In this document: one piece after another, positions 8,109 through 9,395 of the stretch
Numbering within the stretch: the stretch's first letter is position 1
How the letters are laid out: each line of letters starts with the position of its first letter
NCBI RefSeq assembly: GCF_024223415.1
Contig: NZ_CP100500.1
Origin: Escherichia coli
Lineage (GTDB): Bacteria > Pseudomonadota > Gammaproteobacteria > Enterobacterales > Enterobacteriaceae
DNA length: 64,000 bases
Strand: one strand, 5' to 3'
Program-made: the position numbers and the translations under genes
Notes under the pieces: model-generated
The model's input: the letters and a program-made list of their open reading frames with translations, nothing else
Databases searched by the model: none
Told to the model about the DNA's origin: nothing

Positions 8109-9395
8109 TTACTCCGCCACACTCTCGCGCAGCGGTTTCACAGGAAAAACTTTTACCTGCTTAATCATATTGTCCTGTACGTCGAGAATATCTATATCGT
8201 ACTCGCCAATACGCACGCGGGTGCCTGCGACAGGGATCTCTTCCAGTGCCTCAAGAATGACGCCATTAACCGTGCGGGCATCATCTTCCGGTAGATGCCA
8301 GTTAAAGGCTTTGTTGATTTCCCGCACGTTGGCGGTGCCATCGATAATCACCGAACCGTCGTTTTGCGGCGTGACCTCTTCGGCAAGTGTTGGCGACATC
8401 GACGTAGTGAAATCGCCGACAATCTCTTCCAGAATATCTTCAACCGTCACCAGCCCCTGAATGTCTCCATACTCGTTGACGACCAGGCCGACTTTCTTTT
8501 TGTTGCGCTGAAACTTTACCAACTGCGTGCTGAGCGGCGTACCTTCCGGCACAAAATAGATCTCGTCCGCGGCGCGCAGCATGGTTTCTTTGGTGAACTC
8601 TTTTTTCTCCGACATCAACCGCCAGGCTTCACGTACTCGCAGCATACTGATGGCGTCGTCCAGCGAATCACGGTAGAGCACGATGCGCCCGTGAGGTGAG
8701 TGGGAGAGTTGGCGCAGAATAGATTTCCAGTCATCGTTGATATCAATACCGATAATTTCACTGCGCGGCACCATGATGTCATCAACGGTCATTTTTTCCA
8801 GATCGAGCACCGACAGCAGCATATCCTGATTGCGACGGGAAATTTGTGAGCGCGATTCGTGCACGATAGTGCGCAACTCTTCTTTGCTCAAAGAGCCGCT
8901 GACCACGATATCGGTTTTGATGCCCATAATGCGCATTAACATGCGGGTGATAGCGTTCAGCAACCAGACCAGCGGCATCATCAAAATTTGCAGCGGTGCT
9001 AACAGAATACTACTCGGATAAGCGACTTTTTCCGGGTATAGCGCAGCGATAGTTTTCGGCAACACCTCGGCAAAAACCAGCACCACAAAGGTCAGCACAC
9101 CAGTCGCAATTGCCACGCCCGCATCGCCGTACAAACGCATCCCAACAATAGTGCCGAGCGCGGAGGCAAGAATATTGACCAGGTTATTGCCGATTAACAC
9201 CAGGCTTATCAGGCGGTCTGGCTTACGCAGCAATTTTTCGACGCGTTTGGCCGAGCGATTACCCTGTTTCGCCATATGTCGCAGACGATAGCGGTTCAGG
9301 GTCATCATTCCGGTTTCGGACCCGGAAAAATAGGCTGAAATGACCACCATGATGATCAGAATAATGATCAACGTAGTAGTAGAAATGTGTTCCAG
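8109..9395 (-). CDS. yfjD: CNNM/CorC-family inner membrane protein YfjD (DUF21-CBS-CorC domains)
   Basis: The track ORF begins at TTG 9371. There is no in-frame ATG/GTG; an in-frame CTG at 9395 lies 6 nt after AAGGAG and would give MEHISTTT-LIIILIIM..., so the start is uncertain (9371 or 9395). Confidence 0.85.
   Translation of the reverse strand: MEHISTTTLIIILIIMVVISAYFSGSETGMMTLNRYRLRHMAKQGNRSAKRVEKLLRKPDRLISLVLIGNNLVNILASALGTIVGMRLYGDAGVAIATGVLTFVVLVFAEVLPKTIAALYPEKVAYPSSILLAPLQILMMPLVWLLNAITRMLMRIMGIKTDIVVSGSLSKEELRTIVHESRSQISRRNQDMLLSVLDLEKMTVDDIMVPRSEIIGIDINDDWKSILRQLSHSPHGRIVLYRDSLDDAISMLRVREAWRLMSEKKEFTKETMLRAADEIYFVPEGTPLSTQLVKFQRNKKKVGLVVNEYGDIQGLVTVEDILEEIVGDFTTSMSPTLAEEVTPQNDGSVIIDGTANVREINKAFNWHLPEDDARTVNGVILEALEEIPVAGTRVRIGEYDIDILDVQDNMIKQVKVFPVKPLRESVAE

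What the first reader, a model, noticed from the sequence alone, without database searches (positions are those of the whole stretch)
8109..9395. yfjD appears to lack a canonical AUG or GUG start
The long frame for this CorC-family membrane protein has no ATG or GTG before the first TM segment. The only candidates are TTG at 9371 and CTG at 9395; the CTG is 6 nt after a strong AAGGAG. A CTG start is rare in E. coli.
Basis: seen in the sequence. Interest (0 to 1): 0.3.

Follow-up and report, generated by a model that had tools for sequence, protein, structure and literature searches.

The report
Known CTG start codon of yfjD
The E. coli membrane-transporter gene yfjD does begin with the rare start codon CTG, but this is already in the reference annotation and was confirmed by mutagenesis years ago, so the finding is correct and not new.

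Summary
On the minus strand, the yfjD frame (8109-9395) has no ATG, GTG or TTG between the upstream in-frame stop (9488) and TTG 9371. CTG 9395 lies 6 nt after AAGGAG (9407-9402).

The CTG interpretation is correct and already established. RefSeq starts the 428-aa CDS at this CTG in K-12 MG1655 (b4461) and in every other E. coli record I inspected. [quoted passage not shown] It also reports that mutating the formerly annotated TTG (codon 9) had no effect.

My comparative work agrees:
- The SD-to-CTG context is present in 5411 of 5426 complete E. coli genomes. No genome has ATG, GTG or TTG there.
- In 117 other gammaproteobacterial species, 98 have an NTG codon at the aligned position: TTG 83, CTG 8, GTG 6, ATG 1.
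- Sequence conservation starts abruptly at that codon.

CTG therefore looks like a derived form of an old, conserved weak TTG start. Every CTG carrier also has a stronger Shine-Dalgarno sequence (AAGGAG rather than AAGGA[A/C]). Low interest; already known.

The parts
8109..9395 (-). yfjD (corB-type CNNM/HlyC-CorC family transporter) CDS, 428 codons plus stop, starting at CTG
   Evidence: The frame was read. RefSeq CDS boundaries map to these coordinates. Pfam gives CNNM + CBS + CorC_HlyC. The NCBIfam equivalog NF008604 scores 864.8 bits, aligned 1-427 of 428.
9393..9395 (-). CTG initiation codon
   Evidence: It is the annotated start in RefSeq. Mutagenesis confirmation is reported in PMC3531124. 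The aligned codon is NTG in 98 of 117 species, and conservation begins there. It is fixed in E. coli.
9402..9407 (-). Shine-Dalgarno AAGGAG
   Evidence: The duplex with the 16S 3' tail is -8.2 kcal/mol, against -5.1 to -6.1 in TTG/GTG enterobacterial orthologs.
9396..9401 (-). 6-nt spacer TTTCCC. The C run, which continues into the C of CTG, is polymorphic: 331 genomes carry one extra C, giving a 7-nt spacer.
9416..9418 (-). TAA stop of upstream ypjD, 20 nt before the CTG. ypjD and yfjD form a conserved co-oriented gene pair.
   Evidence: ypjD is found directly upstream on the same strand in nearly all gammaproteobacterial loci.
9369..9371 (-). TTG at codon 9, the formerly annotated start, rejected
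   Evidence: It has no SD. Mutating it had no effect (PMC3531124). Codon 9 is start-capable in only 13 of 98 orthologs.
9348..9350 (-). First in-frame ATG (codon 16), inside TM1, rejected as a start
   Evidence: start-capable in 33 of 98 orthologs. The Pfam CNNM domain already begins at residue 11.

Best explanation
yfjD is translated from the CUG codon at 9395 and yields a 428-aa CNNM/CorB-type inner-membrane transporter.

Shown:
- The codon is the annotated start.
- It sits 6 nt after a near-consensus SD (AAGGAG).
- It is the point where cross-species conservation begins.
- A published report states that mutating it abolishes expression, while mutating the TTG at codon 9 does not.

Inferred:
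- The 30S subunit is positioned by the strong SD.
- Initiator fMet-tRNA reads CUG with a first-position mismatch, so the protein starts with Met.
- Efficiency is low. Reporter data put CUG at about 1-2% of AUG.
- Proximity to the ypjD stop (20 nt upstream) probably allows ribosomes finishing ypjD to feed initiation.
- The weak start is an old feature of this gene family. Most gammaproteobacterial orthologs use UUG at the same codon, which suggests that low expression of this transporter is selected.
- In the Escherichia and Enterobacter lineages the start became CUG, and this came with a stronger SD as compensation.
For: Sequence anatomy.

Annotation at the CTG: K-12 MG1655, O157:H7, DH5alpha and divergent strains.

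Experiment: EcoGene 3.0 reports mutagenesis and fusion confirmation.

Within E. coli:
- The exact SD-CTG 30-mer is in 5080 complete genomes, and a variant with one extra C in the spacer is in 331.
- ATG, GTG and TTG versions of the 30-mer are in 0 genomes.
- The 1-nt indel just upstream of the CTG shows that this stretch is not read in the yfjD frame.

Across species:
- The aligned codon is TTG 83, CTG 8, GTG 6, ATG 1 of 98.
- 91 of 98 have no canonical start between the upstream in-frame stop and this codon.
- Column conservation jumps from 0.53 or less upstream to 0.85/1.0/1.0 at the codon.

SD strength separates CTG carriers from TTG/GTG carriers completely.

Solved CorB/CorC homologs align from query residue 10 to their own residue 9-11, so the 428-aa form has the usual N-terminal length.

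CUG initiates at about 1-2% of AUG in E. coli reporters (Hecht et al. preprint).
Against: - The mutagenesis result is cited only as unpublished data (Dague and Rudd) within PMC3531124. I found no primary data.
- I found no ribosome-profiling or N-terminal proteomics record for yfjD. No supplements were held for the Ribo-RET preprint, and the Salmonella riboproteogenomics supplements had no hit.
- Translational coupling to ypjD and selection for low expression are inferences.
- The local RNA fold is not significantly structured (z = -1.3), so it gives no structural support for a coupling mechanism.
- The link between SD strength and start codon could partly reflect shared ancestry, and the NJ tree is weakly resolved.
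Confidence: 0.9

Rival explanations
1. Translation starts at the TTG at 9371 (codon 9 of the CTG frame) and gives a 420-aa protein. This is the older annotation, and it is what a gene caller restricted to ATG/GTG/TTG returns.
For: It is the first canonical start-capable codon in the frame. A 2016 study appears to have used it: it lists a MazF-cleaved ACA 17 nt from the yfjD start, which fits only the TTG.
Against: - There is no SD upstream (ACATTTCTACTACTACG).
- Mutating it had no effect on expression (PMC3531124).
- Orthologs mostly have CTG, CTC, CTT or TTA there. The codon is start-capable in only 13 of 98.
- Protein conservation (E/D-x-I-S-T) extends upstream of it.
Confidence: 0.04
2. Translation starts at the internal ATG 9350 or GTG 9347 (codons 16-17) and gives an N-terminally shortened protein.
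For: These are the first ATG and GTG in the frame.
Against: - Both lie inside the first hydrophobic segment.
- The Pfam CNNM domain and solved homologs align from residue 10-11, so starting here would remove part of TM1.
- No SD is present.
- The position is start-capable in only 33 of 98 orthologs and is absent in Vibrio, Idiomarina and Colwellia.
Confidence: 0.02
3. Initiation at the CUG depends mainly on ribosomes that terminate at the ypjD stop and re-initiate 20 nt downstream, not on de novo 30S binding. This is a variant of the mechanism, not of the start site.
For: - ypjD lies directly upstream on the same strand in nearly all loci. The gap is 13-42 nt in Enterobacterales.
- No promoter-like site lies between the genes.
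- The minimum-energy fold pairs UCCAG in the ypjD 3' end with the CUGG of the start.
Against: - The strong SD at near-optimal spacing suffices for de novo initiation.
- The fold is not significant (z = -1.3).
- In Vibrio and Alteromonadales the ypjD-yfjD gap is 50-135 nt, and the weak TTG start is still kept.
- The construct used in the EcoGene fusions is not described.
Confidence: 0.3

Closest known systems
E. coli yfjD (b4461) CTG start as curated by EcoGene/RefSeq
   Same: It is the same gene and the same codon. The window is 98-100% identical to published E. coli genomes, and the annotated CDS starts at this CTG. EcoGene 3.0 reports experimental confirmation.
   Different: Nothing differs at the locus. 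This window carries the O157:H7-type allele WP_032149952.1 rather than K-12 WP_010723175.1.
[quoted passage not shown]
   Same: Both are chromosomal genes whose translation starts at CUG. EcoGene 3.0 calls yfjD the second instance after hda.
   Different: The proteins are unrelated (a DnaA-regulatory AAA+ protein versus a membrane transporter). I did not examine the hda locus here.
Genes kept on weak non-AUG starts to limit or regulate expression (infC AUU, pcnB AUU, cya UUG; from general knowledge)
   Same: All share a suboptimal initiation codon that is conserved rather than replaced by AUG. In the yfjD family UUG, CUG or GUG is kept in 97 of 98 species.
   Different: For infC the weak codon is the sensor in IF3 autoregulation. 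No regulatory role has been shown for the yfjD start.
Start-codon weakening compensated by SD strengthening (Belinky, Rogozin and Koonin 2017, PMC5622118)
   Same: All CTG carriers have the full AAGGAG, whereas TTG/GTG enterobacterial orthologs have AAGGA[A/C]. This fits the general trend stated in that abstract.
   Different: According to its abstract, that study describes AUG, GUG and UUG switches. The case here involves CUG.
CNNM/CorB Mg2+ transporters (Methanoculleus CorB 7M1T/7M1U, Thermus CorC 7CFF, Salmonella CorB)
   Same: Same domain architecture and clear sequence homology. The CNNM structure preprint lists yfjD alongside Salmonella CorB in its phylogenetic tree of CNNM-family proteins.
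   Different: Transport activity of E. coli YfjD itself was not examined here.

Membership tests
E. coli genes initiated at CTG (hda, yfjD) | No canonical in-frame start upstream of the conserved N-terminal protein sequence | tested here: met
   One search finds no ATG, GTG or TTG between stop 9488 and TTG 9371. The conserved EHISTTT lies upstream of the TTG.
E. coli genes initiated at CTG (hda, yfjD) | Shine-Dalgarno sequence at functional spacing from the CTG | tested here: met
   AAGGAG at 9407-9402 with a 6-nt spacer. Duplex energy is -8.2 kcal/mol.
E. coli genes initiated at CTG (hda, yfjD) | Orthologs start at the homologous codon | tested here: met
   98 of 117 species have NTG at the aligned codon. 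91 of 98 have no canonical start between the upstream in-frame stop and this codon. Conservation begins at this codon.
E. coli genes initiated at CTG (hda, yfjD) | Loss of expression when the CTG is mutated | not testable with these tools
   Reported as confirmed in PMC3531124, which cites unpublished data.
E. coli genes initiated at CTG (hda, yfjD) | N-terminal (f)Met at the CTG position in the native protein, or an initiating-ribosome footprint there | not testable with these tools
   No profiling or proteomics record was found.
CNNM / HlyC-CorC family transporter (CorB type) | N-terminal CNNM (DUF21) transmembrane domain | tested here: met
   PF01595 at 1.5e-53, residues 11-184. Aligns to the 7M1T/7M1U and 7CFF TM domains.
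CNNM / HlyC-CorC family transporter (CorB type) | CBS-pair domain followed by a CorC_HlyC domain | tested here: met
   PF00571 and PF03471. The CBS-domain chain 3HF7 matches residues 201-330 at 2.1e-74.
CNNM / HlyC-CorC family transporter (CorB type) | Full-length match to the NCBIfam equivalog above its cut-off | tested here: met
   NF008604 scores 864.8 bits against a cut-off of 475, aligned 1-427 of a 428-position profile.
CNNM / HlyC-CorC family transporter (CorB type) | Mg2+ transport activity | not testable with these tools
   Inferred from family membership only.

The most novel reading that the evidence does not exclude
The weak non-AUG start may be a conserved regulatory device of the CorB/YfjD family rather than a mere expression limiter. 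UUG, CUG or GUG is kept in 97 of 98 species across lineages whose synonymous sites are scrambled. Initiation at UUG/CUG would then respond to IF3 level or to cytosolic free Mg2+, both of which affect start-codon discrimination according to general knowledge. That would tie synthesis of a putative Mg2+ exporter to Mg2+ or to translational status. My data show only the conservation and the link between SD strength and start codon. The sensing idea is speculation.
Probability: 0.12. Interest if true: 0.55.

Novelty: already known. Interest (0 to 1): 0.15.

Why it matters
It matters mainly for annotation. Gene callers limited to ATG, GTG and TTG give a 420-aa protein that lacks 8 conserved residues. 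At least one published analysis appears to have measured a distance from the obsolete TTG start.

The comparative result adds some context. The family has kept a weak start codon at one fixed position across Gammaproteobacteria, and the E. coli CUG is a derived form paired with a stronger SD. This makes it a clean natural example of compensation between start codon and SD, and a possible test case for regulation that depends on a weak start.

Tried and rejected
- An Rfam scan of 7300-11000 at E <= 1 found nothing, so there is no known leader or riboswitch.
- Folding -60 to +60 around the start gave z = -1.3, which is not significant.
- The promoter/terminator scan found no promoter-like site between ypjD and yfjD.
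- I looked for start-site profiling or N-terminomics data on yfjD. The Ribo-RET preprint has no held supplements, and the Salmonella riboproteogenomics supplements have no yfjD or corB entry.
- Literature searches for hda or CUG initiation returned nothing relevant beyond EcoGene 3.0.
- A downstream ATG/GTG start and the TTG codon-9 start were considered and rejected (see rivals).
- ATT 9386 was considered as a near-cognate start. It lies 15 nt from the SD, and the codon is simply a conserved Ile (ATH) in orthologs.
- Salmonella and Klebsiella start codons were not obtained.

Full report
**What is in the sequence**

The window is E. coli; this stretch is 100% identical to O157:H7 strain TR01. 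The local genes are grpE (7461-8054, +), yfjD (8109-9395, -), ypjD (ending at 9416, -) and ffh (10374-11735, +).

In the yfjD frame on the minus strand:
- The nearest upstream in-frame stop is TAA at 9488.
- From there down to TTG 9371 there is no ATG, GTG or TTG.
- CTG is at 9395-9393.
- AAGGAG occupies 9407-9402, which leaves the 6-nt spacer TTTCCC.
- The ypjD stop TAA is at 9418-9416, 20 nt before the CTG.
- The first ATG (9350) and GTG (9347) are codons 16-17, inside the hydrophobic run LIIILIIMVVISAY.

Every coordinate and statement in the finding is therefore correct. The absence of canonical starts over about 39 codons is not statistically remarkable by itself (my estimate is about 0.15). 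The informative point is that conserved protein sequence runs upstream of the first canonical start.

**It is already annotated and experimentally addressed**

RefSeq places the CDS start at this CTG, giving 1287 nt and 428 aa. This holds in K-12 MG1655 (b4461, YP_026171.3, 2748774..2750060). It also holds in O157:H7 TR01, DH5alpha, the most divergent strain retrieved, and three further strains.

The EcoGene 3.0 paper (PMC3531124) makes four relevant statements:
- A CTG start was predicted for yfjD from sequence conservation and ribosome-binding-site inspection.
- Mutating the previously annotated TTG at codon 9 had no effect.

The caveat is that the experiment is cited as unpublished results. 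I found no ribosome-profiling or N-terminal proteomics entry for the gene.

**Independent test within E. coli**

The 30-mer that spans SD, spacer, CTG and the next five codons is present in 5080 of 5426 complete genomes. A variant with one extra C in the spacer is present in a further 331, many of them O157:H7. Versions with TTG, ATG or GTG in place of CTG occur in none.

A 1-nt indel carried by hundreds of genomes immediately upstream of the CTG shows that this stretch is not read in the yfjD frame. One strain also has a 9-nt duplication upstream of the SD.

**Independent test across species**

I scanned one genome per species for the DNA encoding FSGSETGMM (codons 23-31).

I looked at the codon aligned with the E. 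coli CTG, 66 nt upstream of the Phe codon. Excluding the second E. coli locus and loci cut at an edge, 98 of 117 species have NTG there: TTG 83, CTG 8, GTG 6, ATG 1. The exceptions include 12 SAR86 loci, 11 of which carry ATG (one GTG) one codon further upstream.

Further results from the same set:
- In 91 of 98 there is no canonical start between the upstream in-frame stop and this codon.
- In 19 the stop is within three codons.
- The frequency of the commonest base is at most 0.53 in the 24 columns upstream, jumps to 0.85/1.0/1.0 at the codon, and averages 0.45 at third codon positions downstream.
- No downstream codon is start-capable in more than 33 of 98 species. The E. coli codon-9 TTG position is start-capable in 13.

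This fixes the initiation site at the homologous codon in the whole family. It also shows that the family has kept a non-AUG start, mostly UUG, over long evolutionary distances.

**CTG looks derived and comes with a stronger SD**

CTG occurs in eight other species' loci besides E. coli: E. albertii, four Enterobacter loci (cloacae, asburiae, sp. Bisph1 and an Enterobacter MAG), Superficieibacter and one soil MAG. Citrobacter has GTG. Kluyvera, Cedecea, Pluralibacter, Pseudocitrobacter, Pantoea, Vibrio, Idiomarina, Colwellia, Rheinheimera and others have TTG.

Every CTG carrier has AAGGAG and a C-rich spacer, with an anti-SD duplex of -8.2 to -8.6 kcal/mol. All 21 TTG or GTG Enterobacterales have AAGGA[A/C]-type sites, at -5.1 to -6.1 kcal/mol. 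The separation is complete.

In a neighbour-joining tree of the gene, the CTG carriers fall into three groups. Each is next to TTG or GTG relatives. So the association probably arose or reverted more than once. The tree is weakly resolved, and shared ancestry cannot be excluded.

This pattern fits the general trend that weaker start codons are compensated by stronger SD sequences, as stated in the abstract of PMC5622118.

**How it most likely works**

Shown: the start position, the SD and its spacing, and the conserved ypjD-yfjD gene pair on one strand. The gap between the two genes is 13-42 nt in Enterobacterales and 50-135 nt in Vibrio and Alteromonadales.

From the literature: CUG supports about 1-2% of AUG-level initiation in E. 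coli reporters, whereas AUG, GUG and UUG give 10-100% (Hecht et al. preprint).

Inferred:
- The strong SD positions the 30S subunit.
- fMet-tRNA reads CUG with a first-base mismatch.
- Output is low, as suits a polytopic membrane transporter.
- Ribosomes terminating at ypjD may contribute by coupling.

The local RNA fold is not significant (z = -1.3). No Rfam element was found, and no promoter-like site lies between the two genes.

**The protein**

The product has the CNNM (DUF21), CBS and CorC_HlyC domains. It matches the NCBIfam equivalog NF008604 over positions 1-427 of 428. It is homologous to the solved CorB/CorC/CNNM transporters. The transmembrane-domain chains (7M1T, 7M1U, 7CFF, 7CFG) align from query residue 10 to chain residue 9-11. 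The 428-aa form therefore has the normal N-terminal length, whereas the 420-aa form would have almost none.

**Verdict**

The added value here is the comparative picture: an old, conserved weak start, with CUG as a derived state paired with a stronger SD. Interest is low.

Noticed in passing
window 9386-9388 (-): The MazF-regulon paper (PMC5001579) lists yfjD with a cleaved ACA 17 nt from its start codon. The only ACA at that distance is 17 nt upstream of the obsolete TTG start. It therefore lies inside codons 3-4 of the CTG-initiated ORF, not in a 5' UTR. That entry seems to rest on the old annotation.
   Followed up: partly
window 9395-9398 (-); L004 (strain 143): The C run that bridges the spacer and the CTG is polymorphic in length. 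5080 genomes have CCCC (6-nt spacer) and 331 have CCCCC (7-nt spacer), including many O157:H7 strains. The window itself is O157:H7-like but has the short form. I did not determine whether this changes expression or is partly a homopolymer assembly error.
   Followed up: partly
L003 1583-1591 (E. coli ChlosBP-23-1), equivalent to the window position just after 9419: A 9-nt tandem duplication (TAACCCCAG) covers the ypjD stop codon and lies upstream of the yfjD SD. It creates two successive TAA stops and lengthens the intergenic gap to 29 nt. The SD, spacer and CTG are unchanged.
   Followed up: no
window 9416-10282 (-): The ypjD ORF is open from an ATG at 10282 (288 aa), but RefSeq annotates 263 aa starting at 10207 (MPVFALL...). 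tblastn alignments to other Enterobacterales begin at residue 1 in some species and at about residue 21-26 in others, so the ypjD start may also deserve a check.
   Followed up: no
window 8076-8103: A 12-bp GC-rich hairpin (ACGGCCCTGCAT...ATGCAGGGCCGT) lies between the convergent yfjD and grpE stops. The scan scores it as a terminator on the + strand (grpE). It probably serves both genes.
   Followed up: no
L007-L126 (orthologous loci): The ypjD-yfjD gene pair is conserved on one strand in nearly all gammaproteobacterial loci sampled. No ypjD match was found upstream in the 12 SAR86 loci or in 8 others. The 12 SAR86 loci instead place a start codon one codon upstream of the usual site (ATG in 11, GTG in one).
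   Followed up: partly
L007-L126, bases -1 to -5 before the start codon: TTG-start orthologs tend to have T-rich bases just before the start (for example CTTTT TTG). CTG-start orthologs have C runs (CCCC CTG). The cause is unknown; it could be mutational or related to spacer composition.
   Followed up: no
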